From positions 1,620,001 through 1,652,000 of the forward strand of contig CP008936.1 of NCBI GenBank assembly GCA_000743035.1: a stretch of 32,000 nt of DNA. Direction: 5' to 3'. The stretch's first letter is position 1. Every line of letters starts with the position of its first letter. Of the stretch, positions 20,612-29,678 are shown in pieces. The DNA comes from Candidatus Paracaedimonas acanthamoebae (lineage in GTDB: Bacteria; Pseudomonadota; Alphaproteobacteria; Caedimonadales; Caedimonadaceae). The translations under genes were made by a program, and so were the position numbers. The notes beneath the pieces were generated by a model, which was not told the DNA's origin, searched no databases, and saw only the letters and a list, made by a program, of their open reading frames with translations.

Positions 20612-22102
20612 ATGTTCTCTTCTTCAAATTTTGACCATTATTTAGATAATTTAGCTCACACTCATTTGTTGTGTCTAGGCGACATAATGCTTGATTGCTT
20701 CATTTATGGTCGAGTGGAACGCATTTCTCCTGAAGCCCCCGTTCCTGTATTTCACATGAATCATAAAACAATGTCTGTAGGAGGAGCAGGAAACGTCGTA
20801 CGGAATCTATGTGCGCTTGGCGTTGAAACTTCTTTTTGTGGCATGATTGGTAAGGATAATGAAGGAGAAGAATTAAAGAAATTAATCGATGGGCTCCCTA
20901 AAACGGCAGGATGCTTGATTCAAGATGCTCATCGACCCACAACGCACAAAATACGCTATCTGGCCCATAACCAACAAATACTTAGAGCAGATAATGAGGC
21001 AACCTTTCCCCTTTCTTTAGAGCTTCAAAATCAAGTAATACAGTATTTTCAAACACAGCTATTTTTAGTTAATGGCGTCATTTTTTCAGATTATGGCAAA
21101 GGAATGTTACCTCCTACGCTTCTGAAAGAGTTAATTTCTCTAGCAAAACAAGCAGGAAAGCCTGTTATTGTGGATCCTAAGGGCTCAGATTACAGTATTT
21201 ATCGTGGGGCAACAGTTCTTACACCTAACTTGCGCGAGCTTGCTCAGGCAACACATATGCCAGTTACTAAAGATAATGAAATTGTTGAGGCAGCTTTAAG
21301 CTTGATCAATAAATATGAGATTAATGCTGTTCTTGTTACGCGTAGCGAACAAGGCATGAGCTTAATTCGTGCGCATCAAGAGCCCTTCCATATTCCAACA
21401 CACGCTATAGAGGTATTTGATGTTTCGGGGGCGGGCGATACGGTTATAGCGGCATTTTCGGCAACTTTGTTAAGTGGTGCTTCTTTTGAAGAAGCTGCTT
21501 ATCTTGCAAATGTGGCAGCTGGTCTTGTTGTCGCAAAGGTGGGGACGGCAACTGTTAGTTCAGAAGAGGTACAAAATCTTATAAAAAAGAAAGATATCTC
21601 TCCTATAAAAAATAAGAATTTAAACCGTTTAGAAGCAAACGATATTGTTATTCAATGGAAACGTCAGGGATTGAAAGTTGGGTTTACAAATGGATGTTTT
21701 GATCTTCTTCATCCAGGGCATATAGCGCTTTTGCAAAAGGCAAGATCAAAGTGTGACAAGCTAATTGTAGGGTTGAACAGCAATGCTTCAATTCAGCGTC
21801 TGAAAGGTCCGCAACGACCTATACAATCTCAAGAGGCTAGAGCAACTGTTTTAGCTTCTTTAGAGATGGTCGATATGGTTGTCGTTTTTGAAGAAGATAC
21901 GCCGATAAATCTTATTCATACAGTGCGTCCCGATGTTCTTGTAAAAGGTGCCGATTATACGATTGATAAAGTCGTTGGAGCCCGCGAAGTCCAAAGTTGG
22001 GGAGGTGAAGTTTTATTAATTGAATTAATCCCTGAACAAAGCACAACAAGAACCGTCCATAAAATAAAAGAAGCTCAACAAAGCCCAAGCCAAGTAGCAT
22101 AA
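20612..22102 (+). CDS. hldE: bifunctional D-beta-D-heptose 7-phosphate kinase / D-beta-D-heptose 1-phosphate adenylyltransferase
   Basis: 496-aa ORF. N-terminal ribokinase-like domain (DVSGAGDTV) and C-terminal cytidylyltransferase domain (GFTNGCFDLLHPGH). Confidence 0.92.
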   Translation: MFSSSNFDHYLDNLAHTHLLCLGDIMLDCFIYGRVERISPEAPVPVFHMNHKTMSVGGAGNVVRNLCALGVETSFCGMIGKDNEGEELKKLIDGLPKTAGCLIQDAHRPTTHKIRYLAHNQQILRADNEATFPLSLELQNQVIQYFQTQLFLVNGVIFSDYGKGMLPPTLLKELISLAKQAGKPVIVDPKGSDYSIYRGATVLTPNLRELAQATHMPVTKDNEIVEAALSLINKYEINAVLVTRSEQGMSLIRAHQEPFHIPTHAIEVFDVSGAGDTVIAAFSATLLSGASFEEAAYLANVAAGLVVAKVGTATVSSEEVQNLIKKKDISPIKNKNLNRLEANDIVIQWKRQGLKVGFTNGCFDLLHPGHIALLQKARSKCDKLIVGLNSNASIQRLKGPQRPIQSQEARATVLASLEMVDMVVVFEEDTPINLIHTVRPDVLVKGADYTIDKVVGAREVQSWGGEVLLIELIPEQSTTRTVHKIKEAQQSPSQVA

Positions 22103-22125
22103 TTTTTAAACTAAAAGGAATAACC

Positions 22126-22193
22126 ATGAAAAAAGAAGCAATTTTTATATTGTTCTCAGTGGATTGATGGTATCAAGTGCATCAATTTCTTAA
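22126..22193 (+). pseudogene. decayed 5' remnant (signal-peptide region only) of a paralogue of the 25362-26207 gene
   Basis: SD AAAGGAA plus an ATG at 22126. Frame 0 gives MKKEAIFILFSVD*; the shifted frame gives SGLMVSSASIS*. Compare MKKQTIYTMICGLMMSSASMASS at 25362. The 14-mer TCAAGTGCATCAAT is identical at 22173-22186 and 25407-25420. Confidence 0.5.
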
Positions 22194-22203
22194 AGGTTAT
22201 GCA

Positions 22204-22830
22204 TCATTCAATCGTTAGCATATCTGAAAATTGATGATTAACATCGCGATGCTTGCATTCATCATTGCGGATCACAACAATAAGATCCTTGAGCCGCGCT
22301 GTTGGTGAAAGGTTCCAATAACCTCGAGCAATTTGAGGAATCTCGCAATTGGCCATTCTGCCTTCTTCAACTTCTTTTAAATATTGCGTGTAACTTACCA
22401 CTGCTTCTTCCTCAAGATAGCCAACAAGACGATGAGCAGTTCTTGCAGAACAAATATATAAGATCAAATACAAGGTATAAAAAATGCCTTGTGCGGCTAT
22501 AATAAGTAATCTTTCAAGAGTACTGGGTTGGGCAATATGAATGAATGTCATTAGGTGCATTCTTTCGTTTTCTGCTTCATCTAAAAGTTCTTTTATCCAT
22601 CCATGATCATCTTCGATTTTTCTTAGAGATCTTAAATGGCGTAACATGCCGGCAATCATGCCAGGAATAGCCGCAACCGTTTCTAAGACAACAGCGCGAT
22701 GGCCATATCTTTTCTTAAAGAAAGCATCGGCAAATAAACGCATAAATTTTACAATGCAAAGAGCAATACGATCTTGAATGGTTTTTGGTTTGCGGTGGAC
22801 TTTTAAAGGGTATAACTGAGTCATCAACAT
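22204..22830 (-). CDS. aox: alternative oxidase (cyanide-insensitive di-iron ubiquinol oxidase)
   Basis: 208-aa ORF with all four iron-binding motifs in order: LETVAAIPGM, ENERMHLMTF, YLEEEAVVSYT and RNDECKHRDVNH (compare the eukaryotic LET, NERMHL, LEEEA, RADEA.HRDVNH). Confidence 0.9.
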   Translation of the reverse strand: MLMTQLYPLKVHRKPKTIQDRIALCIVKFMRLFADAFFKKRYGHRAVVLETVAAIPGMIAGMLRHLRSLRKIEDDHGWIKELLDEAENERMHLMTFIHIAQPSTLERLLIIAAQGIFYTLYLILYICSARTAHRLVGYLEEEAVVSYTQYLKEVEEGRMANCEIPQIARGYWNLSPTARLKDLIVVIRNDECKHRDVNHQFSDMLTIE

Positions 22831-23862: not shown

Positions 23863-24247
23863 TTGAAAGCTCCTTTATTTTATTTTTAATATAAAAGGAG
23901 AAGCTCGGAAGTGAGAATTTGAGAGATTAAAGAAATTTAAACTTCTTAGCGAAGCTTATCAATCAAAGGATCCAATTTATTGCAACCATGAAATATAAAA
24001 AATTGTTGTCAAATAGTTGAATCATTATTTTATAGAGTTAGATTAAAACTTGGATCGTATTAAATATTATTAAAAATATACATAGTATGTTTGGAAATAG
24101 TAACTTCTATGAATTTAGAAAAAAGAAAGAAAATATAAAATTTATAAAAAATATTTAATTGTTTTATCCATATTTGACAAGAATCTTCTTATTCAGTAAA
24201 TGAAATCAGCAATTTTTTTGGTGAAAAATAAATTTTTGAAAAAAAAG

Positions 24248-24275
24248 TTGACAACTATCAATGATAGTATATTTA
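24248..24275 (+). promoter_or_regulatory. putative sigma70 promoter with an embedded tetO-like palindromic operator, upstream of the 24330 cluster
   Basis: TTGACA (24248-24253), perfect palindrome ACTATCA-A-TGATAGT (24254-24268), then TATTTA (24270-24275) at a 16-nt spacer. An A8 run sits immediately upstream. A second candidate is TTGACA-17 nt-TAAATG at about 24174-24202. Confidence 0.5.
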
Positions 24276-24329
24276 CATAAGCAGGTAAGCTAAAATTTAA
24301 GACAATTTGTGTATATAAGGAAAATTATA

Positions 24330-25019
24330 ATGAAGAATTTTGCGCAAAATATCTCTTTTTTCAAAACCCTTAGTGTTTGCATAATTCTTTCTGGTTTTGG
24401 CATAAATGTCTTTAAGTGTGCAGCGAGTGCGCTCGGAGAGGAAGCTGCAGAAGATGTTAATATTGGGGGAGCAAGCTCTTCGGTACCTATGGTAATTCCC
24501 CCTCTAAATTTGTTTGAATCCGACATTACATCACAGTCCCCAACGTTACGCCCCATCCCGATCCCATCTCTAAAAGAGCTGAAAGGTCAAATTTTTTGGC
24601 ATGAGTTCATAATATTAGATGAAAAGAGTGACAGTCGCGAAAACAAAAGGCTCAAAGCGCAGGATGCATTTATTGCAGTGACTGACTTGGCGACTATGTT
24701 TGAAGAGGAATTTGAAAAGGATAAGTATCAGACTATTTTTTCTGGAACAAATTTTAAGCAAGTTTTATCAGAAGAGAAGGTGAGGATGAAACTCATCTTG
24801 AAGGGCCAAGAATTTGAAATAGCAGGATTCAGTGATGCATTGTTAGGAGCTTTAGATCAGTGGGTCACATTGAAAGAGTGCTTTTTTAGTCTTAACAAAG
24901 CCGTAACATTGCTTCGTAATCGGATTCATGAAGATTATACTAAAGAACAAGAATATATCGCTCGTATTGCTTTTTTAACTAAATTGAAAAAAAATGGGAA
25001 GACGAATGTCAATCTTTAA
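24330..25019 (+). CDS. hypothetical secreted protein, upstream segment of a gene split at an A8 tract
   Basis: SD AAGGA (24317-24321) plus an ATG at 24330. Signal-like N-terminus MKNFAQNISFFKTLSVCIILSGFGINVFKCAASA. No recognisable family. The reading frame terminates 25 nt after the A8 run. The track start is GTG at 24309. Confidence 0.6.
   Translation: MKNFAQNISFFKTLSVCIILSGFGINVFKCAASALGEEAAEDVNIGGASSSVPMVIPPLNLFESDITSQSPTLRPIPIPSLKELKGQIFWHEFIILDEKSDSRENKRLKAQDAFIAVTDLATMFEEEFEKDKYQTIFSGTNFKQVLSEEKVRMKLILKGQEFEIAGFSDALLGALDQWVTLKECFFSLNKAVTLLRNRIHEDYTKEQEYIARIAFLTKLKKNGKTNVNL
24987..24994 (+). repeat. homopolymeric A8 tract at the junction of two reading frames
   Basis: ttgAAAAAAAAtgg. 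The 0 frame reads L K K N G...stop. The -1 frame is open from 24983 and reads ..K K W E D E C... through to 25351. Confidence 0.9.
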
Positions 25020-25090
25020 TAACAAATGGTTCTGCGTCCGGAAGCACTAACCAACAATCTTCAATAGTAAGTCCCAGAGAACTTGAGCAG

Positions 25091-25351
25091 TTGCAGTCTC
25101 AAAATCAAGATTTAAGGATAAATATTGCAACGTTCGAAAGGGCTAATCAACAATTAAACTTGGAAAATCAAACGCTTCGAGCTCGGGTCTCTCAACTTGA
25201 AAAAGAGGCACTGGATAATCGTCAAGAAGATCACGTGGCTATTCCGGTTGGTGCAGAGCCTAAGAAAAGACTTTCTTTTTGGGGATGGATTGTGAGCTTG
25301 TTTCAGAGGTCCCCATCTACAGTAAATGAAACAACCAAACTTATACAATAA
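25091..25351 (+). CDS. coiled-coil segment, probably the downstream (-1 frame) part of the 24330 gene rather than an independent gene
   Basis: The ORF has no ATG or Met anywhere. The track start is a TTG without a convincing SD. The frame is open upstream to 24983, overlapping the A8 tract. It has heptad-like Q/L/E/N-rich sequence and ends in the hydrophobic LSFWGWIVSLF. Confidence 0.45.
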   Translation: MQSQNQDLRINIATFERANQQLNLENQTLRARVSQLEKEALDNRQEDHVAIPVGAEPKKRLSFWGWIVSLFQRSPSTVNETTKLIQ

Positions 25352-25361
25352 GGAGTAAACT

Positions 25362-26207
25362 ATGAAAAAACAAACTATTTACACAATGATATGTGGCTTA
25401 ATGATGTCAAGTGCATCAATGGCTTCATCTAACTTAAAAGACGAGTTTTCAACACCAGAAAAAAAACGTATCACACAAGTAACGGTAGGTCTCACTCCTT
25501 ATTCTAAAGCAATTGTAGAAGAACAAGTAAAGGCTTCTCTAAGACAAGAAAGACAGGAAAAAAAAGCAACTGAAGAATCTAGGGTAGCAAGAAGGCTTGT
25601 ATTAGAAGAAGCTGACGAAAAAGTTAAGCTTGAAGAGGCGAAACATAAAATTCAAATGAAAGAATTAGAAGAAAAACTTCAAGCTTTAAATCTTTCAAAA
25701 ACATCGAGTGAAAAAGAATTACAAGACCTTCGTAAAGAAAATGAGGAATTAAGACAAAGCAAGGAAGATCTTTCGACTCAACTGAAGAAAATTGAACAGG
25801 ATATTCAATTAAAGACAACAGAATTTGCAGAATTAGAAAAAGGTCATAAAGAAGTGCAAACAGCTCTTACGACTGCAAAAGCAACAGCAACCCAAGATGC
25901 TGAAAAAATTCAACAATTAGAAGGAAGCAAAAAAAGCCGTGAAGCAGCCTTGAAAATTTTGAGTGATTCTCTTGCGCTTGCTAGACAAGAGAAGGCTGAA
26001 GTAGTTGCTAAGTTAAATATAAAAGAACAAGAAGAAGCAGAATCAAAGGCGCAAGTTGCACTTAAGGAAGCAGAATTGAAACGTACTCAAGAAGAATTGT
26101 CTCTCGTGAAACAATATGTTTTTGAGGCTCCGACATCAACAACTGCTTCGACTTCAAAGCCTTCTCCAAATTCAAAGGCGCCTGGAAAAAAGAATATATT
26201 GGATTAA
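25362..26207 (+). CDS. secreted coiled-coil protein (E/K/Q-rich), no recognisable family
   Basis: SD AAGGAG (25350-25355) overlaps the preceding stop. Signal peptide MKKQTIYTMICGLMMSSASMA/SS, then about 220 aa of heptad-like charged sequence and an S/T/P-rich tail (APTSTTASTSKPSPNSKAPGKK). Confidence 0.75.
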   Translation: MKKQTIYTMICGLMMSSASMASSNLKDEFSTPEKKRITQVTVGLTPYSKAIVEEQVKASLRQERQEKKATEESRVARRLVLEEADEKVKLEEAKHKIQMKELEEKLQALNLSKTSSEKELQDLRKENEELRQSKEDLSTQLKKIEQDIQLKTTEFAELEKGHKEVQTALTTAKATATQDAEKIQQLEGSKKSREAALKILSDSLALARQEKAEVVAKLNIKEQEEAESKAQVALKEAELKRTQEELSLVKQYVFEAPTSTTASTSKPSPNSKAPGKKNILD

Positions 26208-26332: not shown

Positions 26333-27103
26333 ATGTTGAGAAAAGTATTATACTGTTGGTTTTCTCTTTTATTTAATCTATCTCTTGCTCATGCGACCAC
26401 ATGGGAGAATCTTCAGCCTTTCAAATGGCCAACTTGCATTGTACCTCAGAATGAATGGCGTTTTGGTGTTGGAATAGGTGTCGAATATCTTAACCTTCAA
26501 GCAAAAGTAAAAGATGATTTTTCACCTTTTGGCGCTGTGCAATTTGGGGATCGAGATCAAACTCAAAAACACTTTCAAGTTTCCCCATCCTTAGAAATAG
26601 GGAAGACGAGTTGCAATAATTACTATACAGGACTTGTTGTAAGTTGGCATTATTCTGGAATAAAAAAAGAGTCAAGAGCCCCGTTAAAACTCACGACTTA
26701 CTTTACCCATCAATTTAAGATGGCCTATTATTTAGATGTTTTGGCTAAACTTGGGTATAAAGTTACTTCAGAAACAATGGCTTATATGCTTGTGGGGCCT
26801 TCTATGGTGAAGTGGTCACACACAACAAAGCAAATTACCGAGCAAACACTGGAAGATACTTTTAAGATGTCTCAAACAAGTATCGGCTTAGGGGTAGGCT
26901 TAGGAGTAGAACAAGTTATTGGTCAAAATGTAGCTTTAAGCATAAATTATACCCATCATTTTTATAAAAATGAGAAAAAACAAAAGATTATGTCCATCAT
27001 AGATAATGTAGGGTATGGTCCATTCCCACGCTCAGGCATTATTTCTAAAAAAATAACGCCATCTTCTGATGCTATTACCCTGCGTTTAACCTACTTTTTC
27101 TAA
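26333..27103 (+). CDS. outer-membrane beta-barrel protein (OMP_b-brl / surface-antigen-like)
   Basis: Signal peptide ending ..LSLAHA/TT, alternating hydrophobic/polar strands (e.g. FGVGIGVEY, IGLGVGLGVEQ, ALSINYTHHF) and a C-terminal ..ITLRLTYFF with terminal Phe, the typical OMP signature. Confidence 0.75.
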   Translation: MLRKVLYCWFSLLFNLSLAHATTWENLQPFKWPTCIVPQNEWRFGVGIGVEYLNLQAKVKDDFSPFGAVQFGDRDQTQKHFQVSPSLEIGKTSCNNYYTGLVVSWHYSGIKKESRAPLKLTTYFTHQFKMAYYLDVLAKLGYKVTSETMAYMLVGPSMVKWSHTTKQITEQTLEDTFKMSQTSIGLGVGLGVEQVIGQNVALSINYTHHFYKNEKKQKIMSIIDNVGYGPFPRSGIISKKITPSSDAITLRLTYFF

Positions 27104-27428: not shown

Positions 27429-28073
27429 GTGTTTAGTAATTATCGTGATTCGATCATTATCAAAGATCATCTTAAATGCCGCCATATTATTGCAGGAGAT
27501 TACTCTTACTATTCTGGCTATTATCATGGGAAGTCTTTTGAAGAGTGTGTCATGTATTTGGATGAGCTTGATAATCATCATGATCCTACGACAACAGATC
27601 GGCTCATTATGGGAAAGTTTTGCTCAATTGCCACAGGCGTTAAATTTATGATGGGAGGAACGCAAGGTCATAACTATGAGTGGATTGCAGCTTACCCTCT
27701 AGATTCTTTTGACGATGATTTTGATGGATATACGAATACGCCACCTAAAGCTCATAAATGCAAAGGAGATACAATCCTTGGAAATGATGTATGGATTGGC
27801 GCCGAAGCCATGATCATGCCTGGGGTTCATATTGAAGATGGAGCTGTTATTGCGGCACGCGCAGTGGTGACAAAGAAGGTTGGGCCCTATGAGATTTGAG
27901 GTGGAAATCCTGCTAAATTGATTAAAAAACGTTTCTCAGATGAGCACATTGATAAACTCTTACAGATAAAATGGTGGGATTGGGATTTAGAGATACTCAA
28001 GCGAAATCTCCCCTTACTGCGCGCGAAAGATGTGGATGTTTTGTGGAGTAAATTGAAGCAAGGAACCTTATAA
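27429..28073 (+). pseudogene. Vat/XAT-family (streptogramin A / xenobiotic) hexapeptide acetyltransferase interrupted by a single in-frame TGA
   Basis: GTG start with [67 protein letters not shown] and ..GPYEI match Vat proteins. After the TGA at 27897-27899 the same frame continues GGNPAKLIKKRFSDEHIDKLLQIKWWDWDLEILKRNLPLL...QGTL and ends at TAA 28071-28073. The total is 214 sense codons plus the internal TGA, within the normal Vat length range. Confidence 0.8.
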
Positions 28074-28700: not shown

Positions 28701-29102
28701 GTGGGGGTAAATATACTATCTTTTAAAAACCTTCAGCAAGTATATGCCTTGTTCATATGTCTCATCTGTATGATTGTCCTCTTAATTTCTTCGGGGAATT
28801 TCTTAGATGAGCTTACACGCCTCACCTTGCCTGCTTATAGAAATGCAGCACATCTCATTCATTTTCAATCTAATGAAGCCTATTTAAAACATCTTTCTTC
28901 TAACCCCACGGAACGCGCGGAAGCAAAGCTTTTATCTGCTGAAGAACTTAAAGAAAAAAGAATTGAAGCCCGTCAGTATTTTTTAGATGTTGAGCGTTTC
29001 AAAGCTATTGAAAGCCTCATAAAAACAATTCAATGGGCCTTGGTCGCTTTTGTGTTTTTTCTTATTCATTGGCGATTGTACAAGAAATCTGGTTCTGTTT
29101 AA
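28701..29102 (+). CDS. hypothetical membrane protein with two predicted TM helices
   Basis: 133-aa ORF (GTG start) with hydrophobic segments YALFICLICMIVLLISS and WALVAFVFFLIHW flanking a charged helical middle. No family recognised; the start is uncertain. Confidence 0.45.
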   Translation: MGVNILSFKNLQQVYALFICLICMIVLLISSGNFLDELTRLTLPAYRNAAHLIHFQSNEAYLKHLSSNPTERAEAKLLSAEELKEKRIEARQYFLDVERFKAIESLIKTIQWALVAFVFFLIHWRLYKKSGSV

Positions 29103-29108
29103 TTGCAA

Positions 29109-29678
29109 ATGTCTCAAAAGTTCAAAGGTTGCGAGAGCGTTTTGAACATTGAAAATATTGTTCGTAAAATTAACCCATTAGATGACACAGAAGTACACCA
29201 TATTCATGAAACACTTTCTTGGATTCAAAGTGGGGCACCGATTTTTCGACTTCAAAAACCCGATATCCCCAATAAGCACCTTGTGTCTTATTTTGTGCCT
29301 TTTGATAAAAAGGCAAATAAGATTTTATTAACAGTTCATAAGAAATCTGGTCTTTGGTTACCACCAGGTGGGCACGTTGAACTTAACGAGGACCCTCGAG
29401 AAACCGTTAGAAGAGAATGCTTAGAAGAACTAGGATGTACAGCAGAATTTTGGCGTACAGAACCTTTATTTTTAACTTCAACACTAACTGTAGGTCCTAC
29501 AGCAGGGCATACAGATGTAAGTTTCTGGTACGTAATACAAGGTCATCAAGAGTATGCTTATCAATTTAATTTGGATGAATTTGAAGCTATTCGATGGTTT
29601 GGTTTTAATGAGATTCCTTATGAAAATTCAGACCCTCACATGGGTCGCTTTCTTAAAAAATTAGTGATTGAGCTATAA
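29109..29678 (+). CDS. Nudix hydrolase
   Basis: Complete Nudix box GHVELNEDPRETVRRECLEELGC (GX5EX7REUXEEXGU). The ATG at 29109 lies 2 codons inside the track ORF (TTG 29103) and 6 nt after the upstream stop. Confidence 0.85.
   Translation: MSQKFKGCESVLNIENIVRKINPLDDTEVHHIHETLSWIQSGAPIFRLQKPDIPNKHLVSYFVPFDKKANKILLTVHKKSGLWLPPGGHVELNEDPRETVRRECLEELGCTAEFWRTEPLFLTSTLTVGPTAGHTDVSFWYVIQGHQEYAYQFNLDEFEAIRWFGFNEIPYENSDPHMGRFLKKLVIEL

What the first reader, a model, noticed from the sequence alone, without database searches (positions are those of the whole stretch)
24980..25095. A8 tract splits a secreted-protein gene; the -1 frame opens exactly at the tract and has no start codon
The ORF starting at 24330 stops at 25017-25019, 25 nt after an A8 run (24987-24994). 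The -1 frame has a stop at 24980-24982 and is then open from 24983 to 25351, so it opens just upstream of the A run and overlaps the tail of the first ORF by 37 nt. The downstream ORF contains no ATG at all; the track's start at 25091 is a TTG with no convincing SD. It nevertheless ends in a strong SD (AAGGAG 25350-25355) for the next gene, which indicates it is translated. One extra A (A9), or a -1 slip on A AAA AAA A by the ribosome or RNA polymerase, yields a single 340-aa protein: ...ARIAFLTKLKK-KWEDECQSLITNGSASGS...QLEKEALDN...LSFWGWIVSLF... This fuses a signal-peptide domain to a coiled-coil and hydrophobic tail. There are four possible explanations: a homopolymer sequencing error, a fresh pseudogene, slipped-strand phase variation, or programmed/transcriptional slippage producing two isoforms. 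The neighbouring coiled-coil gene also carries two in-frame A8 runs (25458-25465, 25558-25565), and another A8 abuts the -35 box (24239-24246).
Basis: seen in the sequence. Interest (0 to 1): 0.72.

Follow-up and report, generated by a model that had tools for sequence, protein, structure and literature searches.

The report
One gene split at poly-A run
Two neighbouring "genes" of an amoeba symbiont are really one conserved secreted coiled-coil gene, broken by a one-base shortfall in a run of eight A's. The break is most likely a 454 sequencing miscount or else a very recent mutation, not a programmed recoding device.

Summary
An A8 run (24987-24994) sits exactly where the coding frame switches from frame 0 (24330-25019) to the -1 frame (24983-25351). 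Adding one A gives a 340-aa protein. This protein aligns end to end with seven single-ORF orthologues (309-332 aa) in the same gene neighbourhood in related Holosporales lineages. So IM40_08775 and IM40_08780 of Candidatus Paracaedimonas acanthamoebae are two halves of one gene, and the annotated TTG start at 25091 is an artefact.

Nothing supports a programmed event:
- The frame break and the tract are absent from all orthologues.
- No RNA structure flanks the tract.
- A8 is at the detection limit for slippage by bacterial RNA polymerase.

Phase variation is not supported either. The promoter A8 is fixed in length across lineages. The other A8 runs are by-products of Lys/Glu-rich coding sequence.

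The genome was sequenced by 454 and assembled with Newbler at 50x. That platform's consensus errors concentrate in long A/T homopolymers of low-GC genomes.

My ranking is: 454 undercall of A9 as A8 (about 0.55), genuine recent A9-to-A8 deletion (about 0.27), phase variation (about 0.07), programmed slippage (about 0.05). This is an ordinary finding of low interest.

The parts
24225..24329 (+). Promoter region and 5' UTR of the gene: T5-G-A8-G-TTGACA, an invariant ATAGTATATTTACATA block, then a 5' UTR ending in the SD AAGGAAAA. The A8 run at 24239-24246 lies here.
   Evidence: Alignment A5 of 7 lineages is almost invariant from the T-run to the ATG, although the encoded proteins are only 35-46% identical. 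The tract is A8 in 6 of 7 lineages and A9 in L010 through a G>A change. The promoter role is inferred from the TTGACA and this conservation; the consensus scan did not call this site.
24330..24994 (+). 5' part of the gene, read in frame 0 (residues 1 to about 222). It encodes the signal-like N-terminus, the conserved FW.E and FFSLN..LLR.RI motifs, and the start of a long helix.
   Evidence: Translation. It equals P0001 / IM40_08775. It aligns with residues 1 to about 215 of seven single-ORF orthologues. There are no frame-0 stops. The only strongly hydrophobic stretch is residues 8-30.
24987..24994 (+). The A8 homopolymer, which is the site of the one-base deficit. A9 or A6 would restore a single frame.
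   Evidence: The frame change must lie within 24983-25016. The Trp codon at 24995-24997 in the -1 frame aligns with the W of P0002, P0004 and P0007, which places the shift at or before 24994.
25017..25019 (+). Premature TAA in frame 0, after 7 out-of-frame residues (NGKTNVNL).
   Evidence: It is followed by 8 further frame-0 stops.
24995..25351 (+). 3' part of the gene, read in the -1 frame. It encodes a linker, a leucine-zipper coiled coil (L254, L261, F268, L275, L282, L289), the conserved C-terminal S-F-W-x-W-I-x-S-L-F ... E-T-T-K-L-I motif, and the stop at 25349-25351.
   Evidence: Translation. It is homologous to the C-terminal halves of the orthologues, including invariant W318, W320, F325, E334 and L338. 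The segment 24995-25090, upstream of the annotated TTG start, is also homologous (SPRELEQ versus TPRDAES and APRESYE). The GenBank ORF IM40_08780 / P0008 (25091-25351) is therefore a gene-calling fragment.
25362..26207 (+). Downstream neighbour, shown for context. It is a second coiled-coil protein with a signal peptide (281 aa) and two in-frame A8 runs (25459-25466, 25558-25565). Its SD AAGGAG at 25350-25355 overlaps the end of the split gene.
   Evidence: A conserved neighbour of 284-294 aa is present in all orthologous loci. The A-rich runs recur in frame in orthologues.

Best explanation
Window 24330-25351 is a single gene for a lineage-specific exported protein of about 340 aa. Its parts are an N-terminal signal-like segment, a helical domain, a leucine-zipper coiled coil and a Trp-rich C-terminal motif. 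The deposited sequence is one A short in a poly(A) tract (A8 where the intact frame needs A9). Gene callers therefore split it into a 229-aa ORF and an 86-aa ORF with a spurious TTG start. The break is not a programmed or conserved feature. The most likely cause is a pyrosequencing homopolymer undercall in the 454/Newbler reference assembly. On this reading the organism carries an intact gene and makes the full-length protein by ordinary translation.

Shown here: the two ORFs are one gene, the shift lies in the tract, it is absent from orthologues, there are no recoding signals, and the assembly came from 454 data.

Inferred: that the missing base is an assembly error rather than a real deletion.
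For: - The fused 340-aa reading aligns end to end with single-ORF homologues P0002 to P0007, P0011, P0012 and the L005 protein (309-334 aa). The alignment includes the residues flanking the tract and the invariant C-terminal W..W..F..E..L motif.
- All these homologues sit in the same neighbourhood: SIS, hldE, AOX, (DUF72, small ORF), gene, coiled-coil gene, OMP beta-barrel.
- The frame switch is clean, at 0/9 versus 20/0 stops.
- The downstream half shows no decay: it has no stops over 119 codons and all conserved motifs are intact. The promoter, 5' UTR and SD are invariant. This is what an intact gene with a miscounted tract would look like.
- The AF2 model is poor overall, but it predicts one continuous helix (167-236) across the junction.
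- Provenance: P0001 is IM40_08775 of Ca. Paracaedimonas acanthamoebae. This organism was formerly Ca. Caedibacter acanthamoebae. It was 'sequenced by 454 ... assembled using Newbler 2.5.3' at 50x and 37.9% GC (PMC4302308).
- Consensus errors in 454 data are biased to A/T homopolymers. They increase with run length and are worst in low-GC genomes (PMC3277595).
- The tract is in the longest homopolymer class of the window. There are 6 runs of 8 and none longer.
Against: - No reads or second assembly of this species could be found, so the tract length is unverified. P0001's cluster has one member on one contig, and the genome and metagenome scans returned only distant orthologues.
- The 18 other coding A/T runs of 7 or more in the window are all in frame. 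The genes tested by Pfam are full length. The assembly is therefore not riddled with such errors.
- PMC4198247 says the five genomes used 'a combination of 454, Illumina and PacBio', so some polishing cannot be excluded.
- Real gene decay does occur in this window: the catB-like gene has an in-frame TGA away from any homopolymer.
- The gene evolves fast, at 35-46% identity against 77-93% for its flanks.
- Coding A9 runs are rare in relatives. There are 3 runs of 9 in 66 kb, all three in the intergenic region upstream of the target gene.
Confidence: 0.55

Rival explanations
1. This is a genuine, recent one-base deletion (A9 to A8, or loss of the base after the tract) in the symbiont genome. The gene is then a fresh pseudogene, or it makes only a truncated 229-aa exported protein that lacks the leucine zipper and the C-terminal motif. 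Stochastic RNA-polymerase or ribosome slippage on the A8 run would give at most a few per cent of full-length protein, as an unselected leak.
For: - The organism is an obligate intracellular symbiont. Single-base indels in A/T homopolymers are the classic route of gene inactivation in such genomes (PMC5574713 discussion).
- Another real pseudogene lies 3 kb away: catB-like, with an in-frame TGA at 27897-27899.
- The gene and its neighbour evolve far faster than the flanking genes.
- The window protein has also lost the C-terminal N-S-D-x-N-x-V tail that 6 of the 7 orthologues carry (P0007 ends differently).
- The other long homopolymers in the window are in frame.
Against: - The downstream half and all expression signals are completely undecayed, so the event would have to be very recent.
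- The gene is retained as a single ORF with a near-invariant promoter and 5' UTR in seven other lineages. This argues for purifying selection against loss.
- The 454 provenance offers a simpler source for exactly this kind of difference.
Confidence: 0.27
2. This is slipped-strand phase variation. The poly(A) tract would be a contingency locus that switches the exported protein between full-length (A9) and truncated (A8) forms within the symbiont population.
For: - A homopolymer of 8 or more lies inside the coding region of an exported, fast-evolving protein.
- All five A8 runs of the window fall within 23.8-25.6 kb.
Against: - The tract is absent at this site in the orthologues aligned at DNA level, which read AAG AAA AAA GGG or AAG CAA AAA GGT.
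- The promoter A8 is fixed in length across 7 lineages.
- The neighbour's A8 runs are in frame, and equivalent runs are in frame in every lineage.
- The density of long runs here matches the A-rich Lys/Glu composition. It is similar in orthologous loci and at different positions.
- No population data are available.
Confidence: 0.07
3. This is programmed recoding. Transcriptional slippage (+1 A) or -1 ribosomal frameshifting on the A run would produce a set ratio of a 229-aa and a 340-aa isoform. Known parallels are C. rodentium tssM1 and Shigella spa13/mxiE.
For: - The geometry matches known cases. A poly(A) run is closely followed by a zero-frame stop, with the conserved C-terminal domain in the -1 frame (PMC4256274).
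- The downstream frame is intact.
Against: - It is not conserved: all 7 orthologous lineages encode a single ORF.
- A8 is shorter than the known sites, which have 9-11 residues. With E. coli RNAP no rescue was detectable below 8 A's, and fluorescence was barely detectable for this RNAP overall (PMC6260861).
- No structure lies downstream or upstream of the tract. The z-scores are +0.4 to +1.1.
- In frame 0 the heptamer is A AAA AAT. Its A-site Asn codon cannot re-pair well after a -1 slip (read from the sequence; established rules for X XXY YYZ sites).
- No SD-like stimulator lies upstream.
Confidence: 0.05
4. These are two independent genes, as annotated in GenBank (IM40_08775 and IM40_08780), with the second starting at TTG 25091.
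For: This is the GenBank annotation. A TTG codon is present at 25091.
Against: - The -1 frame upstream of 25091 (24995-25090) is homologous coding sequence.
- No convincing SD precedes the TTG.
- All orthologues are single ORFs.
- The 86-aa piece carries no signal sequence, yet it holds the family's conserved C-terminal motif.
Confidence: 0.02

Closest known systems
454 pyrosequencing homopolymer consensus errors that create artificial frameshifts (Luo et al. 2012, PMC3277595)
   Same: The difference is a single base in a long A/T homopolymer. The genome is low-GC (37%) and was sequenced by 454 and assembled with Newbler. The gene is otherwise intact and is split into two called ORFs.
   Different: This is not demonstrated here because no reads were available. 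Only 1 of 19 coding runs of 7 or more in the window is affected.
Poly(A)-tract frameshifts in endosymbiont genes, with proposed rescue by transcriptional slippage (Buchnera and Blochmannia; cited in PMC5009743 and PMC5574713)
   Same: The host is an AT-rich obligate intracellular bacterium. The frame breaks at a poly(A) run in an otherwise conserved gene.
   Different: The tract has only 8 A's. The frameshift is not shared with any related lineage. No transcript data exist. The transcriptome-wide Buchnera study found no case of a transcription error restoring a reading frame.
Citrobacter rodentium tssM1 and Shigella spa13/mxiE transcriptional frameshifting (PMC4256274; PMC5009743)
   Same: A poly(A) run lies just before a zero-frame stop. 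The essential C-terminal part is in another frame. The fusion would need one extra A in the mRNA.
   Different: Those sites have 9-11 residues, were shown experimentally, and in tssM recur in a second genus (Yersinia). Here the tract is A8 and the arrangement is unique to one genome.
Homopolymer contingency loci (phase-variable surface genes of host-adapted bacteria); comparison drawn from my own knowledge
   Same: A homopolymer lies inside the coding region of an exported, fast-evolving protein.
   Different: There is no tract conservation, no length polymorphism data, and no enrichment beyond what composition explains. The neighbouring A8 tracts are fixed in length or in frame across lineages.

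Membership tests
Programmed -1 ribosomal frameshift site (dnaX / IS type) | Slippery heptamer X XXY YYZ in the zero frame that allows both tRNAs to re-pair | tested here: not met
   The zero-frame codons are TTG AAA AAA AAT GGG. The only in-phase heptamer is A AAA AAT, and its A-site Asn codon would re-pair with AAA through a wobble mismatch.
Programmed -1 ribosomal frameshift site (dnaX / IS type) | Stimulatory RNA structure 5-9 nt downstream, and/or an SD-like element upstream | tested here: not met
   Folds of 24995-25044, 24995-25074 and 24960-25100 give z = +1.08, +0.62 and +0.85. No SD-like sequence lies in the 25 nt upstream.
Programmed -1 ribosomal frameshift site (dnaX / IS type) | Frameshift arrangement conserved among orthologues | tested here: not met
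   All 7 orthologous lineages have a single ORF of 309-332 aa.
Programmed transcriptional slippage (mxiE, spa13, tssM1, Thermus dnaX) | A/T run long enough for efficient RNAP realignment (9 or more in the known bacterial cases) | tested here: not met
   The tract is A8. Known cases have 9 to 11 residues. For E. coli RNAP, rescue at A8 is at the limit of detection.
Programmed transcriptional slippage (mxiE, spa13, tssM1, Thermus dnaX) | Heterogeneous tract length in mRNA but not in DNA | not testable with these tools
   This needs cDNA and genomic DNA amplicon sequencing.
Phase-variable contingency locus | Tract length polymorphic among or within strains | not testable with these tools
   No second assembly or read set of this species is in any collection searched.
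Phase-variable contingency locus | Tract maintained at the site, or tracts enriched beyond composition | tested here: not met
   The orthologues aligned at DNA level (L001, L002) lack the tract at this site. The promoter A8 has a fixed length. Orthologous loci carry comparable numbers of runs of 7 or more at other positions. The run-length spectrum is like that of relatives.
Endosymbiont poly(A) frameshift maintained by selection (Blochmannia / Buchnera type) | Same frameshift shared by related lineages | tested here: not met
   The frameshift is unique to the window genome.
454 homopolymer consensus error | Assembly derived from pyrosequencing reads | tested here: met
   PMC4302308 states 454 shotgun plus 3-kb paired-end libraries, Newbler 2.5.3, 50x. 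The identity of the organism was established through.
454 homopolymer consensus error | Single-base length difference in a long A/T homopolymer of an otherwise intact gene | tested here: met
   The error bias toward long A/T runs in low-GC DNA is from PMC3277595.
454 homopolymer consensus error | Independent reads show the other length | not testable with these tools
   No reads are available.
Caedimonadaceae/Holosporales exported coiled-coil protein family (unnamed; P0002 to P0007) | N-terminal MKNFAQN..SF..LSVC..GFGIN..C.AS segment; FW.E and FFSLN..LLR.RI motifs; leucine zipper; C-terminal SFW.W..SLF...ETT.LI; position between AOX/DUF72 and the coiled-coil plus OMP genes | tested here: met
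   All these motifs are present in the A9 reading. Synteny is shown. The family has only 9 hits at E<=1e-3 among 1.84 billion representatives.

The most novel reading that the evidence does not exclude
The tract really is A8 in the genome and the cell depends on slippage. This could be RNA-polymerase +1 A insertion, or Lys-tRNA -1 slippage, or population-level A8/A9 switching. Either route would make a small, tuned amount of the full-length exported coiled-coil protein alongside a truncated form. That would be a lineage-specific, recently evolved two-isoform or on/off control of a host-interaction protein in an amoeba endosymbiont.
Probability: 0.1. Interest if true: 0.5.

Novelty: not a real feature. 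Interest (0 to 1): 0.15.

Why it matters
The practical consequence is an annotation fix. IM40_08775 and IM40_08780 should be merged into one 340-aa gene, or flagged as one frameshifted gene. The gene belongs to a small, uncharacterised family of exported coiled-coil proteins. That family is confined to Caedimonadaceae-like amoeba symbionts and has an unusually conserved promoter and 5' UTR.

If the A8 proved real, it would be one more example of homopolymer-driven gene erosion in an endosymbiont, or possibly of leaky rescue. That would be useful but not surprising. The case also shows that homopolymer frame breaks in 454-era, low-GC genomes need read-level confirmation before any recoding claim is made.

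Tried and rejected
- **Second strain or read-derived assembly.** I looked for one to read the tract length independently. The protein search, the cluster look-up, the genome-contig scan and the metagenome-contig scan returned only orthologues of 35-46% identity. The window's own genome was not returned by the genome scan.
- **Recoding signals.** RNA folding downstream, across and upstream of the tract showed nothing beyond shuffled controls.
- **Systematic cap at 8 in homopolymer calls.** The window has 6 runs of 8 and none of 9. The short-read-derived relatives show a similar decay, with 20 runs of 8 and 3 of 9 in 66 kb. The test is uninformative.
- **Function.** Pfam, NCBIfam and a PDB profile search gave only sub-threshold coiled-coil or leucine-zipper noise, such as C/EBP and GCN4 at E of about 0.005 and YabA. 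I considered a bZIP-like reading and rejected it. The basic-region signature is absent and that segment is not conserved across the family.
- **Structure.** The AlphaFold2 model from the 9-sequence alignment was poor (pLDDT 50, pTM 0.27), so I ran no fold search.
- **dN/dS on the two halves.** I did not attempt this because the orthologues are too divergent (saturated).
- **Other split-gene candidates.** The pair 28701-29102 and 29103-29678 looked like another in-frame split. It is two genes, with the second (NUDIX) starting at ATG 29109.
- **TGA as a sense codon.** I rejected this because TGA terminates 8 ordinary genes in the window.

Full report
**1. Observation**

The sequence is as described.
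- An A8 run occupies 24987-24994.
- The ATG-initiated ORF 24330-25019 encodes 229 aa and stops at TAA 25017-25019.
- The -1 frame has TAA at 24980-24982. It is then open to the TAA at 25349-25351.
- That open stretch contains no ATG, only TTG and GTG codons. The first is TTG 25091, and no SD precedes it.
- Inserting one A gives a 340-aa product.

Stop-codon counts show a clean coding-frame switch. Frame 0 has 0 stops before the tract and 9 after it. The -1 frame has 20 stops before the tract and none after it until the terminal stop.

One coordinate is off by one. The first in-frame A8 of the next gene is at 25459-25466.

**2. What it is**

The first ORF is identical to 'hypothetical protein IM40_08775' of Candidatus Paracaedimonas acanthamoebae, on a 1.72-Mb contig. 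The TTG ORF is IM40_08780 (AIL13556.1).

The fused 340-aa reading aligns over its whole length with single-ORF proteins of 309-334 aa. These come from MAGs named Caedibacter sp. 38-128 and 37-49 and from several unnamed metagenome and Logan assemblies.

A profile search of 1.84 billion representative proteins found only nine hits. The family is therefore small and lineage-specific.

In six fetched orthologous lineages the gene lies in the same neighbourhood as in the window. The order is SIS, hldE, AOX, (DUF72, small ORF), this gene, a coiled-coil gene of about 285 aa with a signal peptide, and an OMP beta-barrel gene (the neighbours of the Caedibacter sp. 38-128 locus L001 were not examined). 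In all seven lineages the gene is one ORF.

Homology continues across the junction:
- Frame 0 supplies ...EQEYIARIAFLTKLKK.
- The -1 frame supplies W-E-D-E-C-Q-S-L. Its W aligns with the W of P0002, P0004 and P0007.
- The stretch between the tract and the annotated TTG start (24995-25090) is also homologous (SPRELEQ versus TPRDAES and APRESYE).

The frame change must therefore lie between 24983 and 24994, which is in or at the edge of the A tract. The annotated TTG start is a gene-calling artefact.

The protein has four recognisable parts:
- One strongly hydrophobic N-terminal segment (residues 8-30), followed by invariant C-x-A-S. This is probably a Sec signal peptide (inference).
- A conserved helical region with an FFSLN..LLR.RI motif.
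- A leucine zipper in the downstream half (L254, L261, F268, L275, L282, L289).
- An invariant C-terminal S-F-W-x-W...L-F...E-T-T-x-L-I motif.

No database family explains the protein's function. The AlphaFold model is of low confidence (pLDDT 50). It does draw one continuous helix, 167-236, across the junction.

**3. Is the break a designed feature?**

Four tests argue that it is not.
- Conservation: the frameshift is unique to this genome. At the same site the orthologues aligned at DNA level read AAG AAA AAA GGG (L001) or AAG CAA AAA GGT (L002).
- Signals: no RNA structure stands out downstream, across or upstream of the tract. The z-scores are +0.4 to +1.1. There is no SD-like stimulator. 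The in-phase heptamer is A AAA AAT, which is poor for tandem -1 slippage.
- Tract length: characterised bacterial transcriptional-slippage sites have 9-11 residues (PMC4256274, PMC5009743). With E. coli RNA polymerase no rescue was detectable below eight A's, and rescue was barely detectable for this RNAP overall (PMC6260861). A transcriptome-wide study in Buchnera found no transcription error that restored a reading frame (PMC5574713).
- The 'cluster of A8 runs':
  - The promoter A8 (24239-24246) lies in a block of about 100 nt that is nearly invariant in seven lineages. It is A8 in six of them and A9 in one through a substitution. It is a fixed element, perhaps UP-element-like, and not a variable tract.
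  - The two A8 runs of the neighbouring gene fall in Lys/Glu-rich regions. Orthologues also carry A-rich runs there, always in frame.
  - Orthologous loci have comparable numbers of runs of 7 or more at other positions.

The SD at 25350-25355 serves the next gene. It is present with the same spacing in all loci, so it does not show that the downstream half is translated.

**4. Artefact or mutation?**

Ca. Paracaedimonas acanthamoebae is the renamed Ca. Caedibacter acanthamoebae (PMC11909080). [quoted passage not shown] They report 50x coverage, 37.9% GC and 5 contigs (PMC4302308). The companion paper speaks of 454, Illumina and PacBio for the five genomes collectively (PMC4198247).

Consensus errors in 454 data are concentrated in A/T homopolymers and rise with run length. 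In low-GC genomes they can put frameshifts into a large fraction of genes (PMC3277595).

The tract here belongs to the longest homopolymer class of the window. The correction needed is +1, which is an undercall. Everything else about the gene is intact, including the near-invariant promoter and 5' UTR and all conserved motifs.

Several points argue against an artefact:
- The 18 other coding runs of 7 or more in the window are in frame.
- The genes tested are full length against Pfam.
- Real decay exists nearby. A type-B chloramphenicol/xenobiotic acetyltransferase homologue carries an in-frame TGA where its relatives have Val. The site is not a homopolymer, and TGA is a normal stop in this genome.
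- The gene and its neighbour evolve much faster than the flanking genes, at 34-46% identity against 57-93%.

No reads or second assembly could be found, so the two readings cannot be separated here. I weigh the strong conservation of the gene and its expression signals in seven lineages against the known behaviour of 454 on A/T runs of 8-9. On that basis I put the sequencing undercall at about 0.55 and a genuine recent deletion at about 0.27. The genuine deletion would mean a fresh pseudogene or truncated product, with at most a few per cent of unselected slippage leak. I put phase variation at about 0.07, programmed slippage at about 0.05, and two independent genes at about 0.02.

**5. Comparison with known systems and novelty**

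The geometry resembles C. rodentium tssM1 and Shigella spa13/mxiE, and the poly(A) frameshifts of Buchnera and Blochmannia. It fails their defining features that could be tested here, namely tract length and conservation.

It fits the profile of a 454 homopolymer consensus error, or of the commonest kind of endosymbiont gene-inactivating mutation. Both are well known. The finding is ordinary, and its practical value is a corrected gene model.

**6. Verdict**

- The single-gene inference is strongly supported, at about 0.95.
- The recoding and phase-variation readings are not supported.
- Interest is 0.15.
- The most novel reading still open is a real A8 with functional slippage or switching. 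It has a probability of about 0.1 and would merit interest of about 0.5 if true.

Noticed in passing
window 27429-28073 (+), stop at 27897-27899: A type-B chloramphenicol/xenobiotic acetyltransferase (CatB/Vat-like) gene is interrupted by an in-frame TGA (…VGPYEI*GGNPAKLIKKRF…). The best PDB homologue, 6mfk, has Val at that position (E=6e-69 over the whole length). The site is not a homopolymer, and TGA is a normal stop in 8 other genes of the window. The gene is absent from the syntenic loci L006, L008 and L010. It is probably a nonsense-inactivated, horizontally acquired gene.
   Followed up: partly
window 24225-24329; L001, L002, L005, L006, L008, L010 upstream regions (alignment A5): The ~100 nt upstream of the split gene are almost invariant across seven lineages. 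The block runs T5-G-A8-G-TTGACA … ATAGTATATTTACATA … 5' UTR … AAGGAAAATTATAATG. The encoded proteins are only 35-46% identical. This is an unusually constrained promoter and leader, which may be a regulatory RNA or a protein-binding site. The consensus promoter scan did not call it.
   Followed up: partly
window 24330-26207 versus flanks 20612-22830 and 26333-27103: The split gene and the adjacent 281-aa coiled-coil gene with a signal peptide are 34-46% identical to their orthologues. hldE and AOX are 77-93% identical and the OMP gene is 57-73%. The result is a fast-evolving pair of exported proteins embedded in conserved synteny.
   Followed up: partly
P0009 (240 aa, Logan contig; not in the window): This protein shares a nearly identical first ~35 residues (MKNFAQNPSFLKTLSVCMIFSGFGIN.IKCVAS) with the family. 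The rest of it is different, although it also has a coiled coil and a C-terminal SFW motif. The N-terminal export module and the leader appear to be reused by a paralogous gene.
   Followed up: no
window 22204-22830 (-): An alternative oxidase (AOX, Pfam E=9e-84) is encoded next to hldE. It is conserved at 86-93% identity in all related loci. This is a notable respiratory gene for an obligate amoeba symbiont lineage.
   Followed up: no
window 24309 (GTG) to 24329: the ORF listing extends the ORF to a GTG at 24309 (MYIRKII-MKNF…), and the same extension appears in L005. This stretch is the conserved 5' UTR and contains the SD AAGGAAAA, so the ATG at 24330 is the likelier start.
   Followed up: partly
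window 25340-25351 versus orthologue C-termini: The window protein ends at …TKLIQ*. It lacks the 6-8-residue tail (N-S/T-D-x-N/D-x-x-V) present in six of the seven orthologues (P0007 ends …LLDREN instead). The stop overlaps the SD of the next gene.
   Followed up: no
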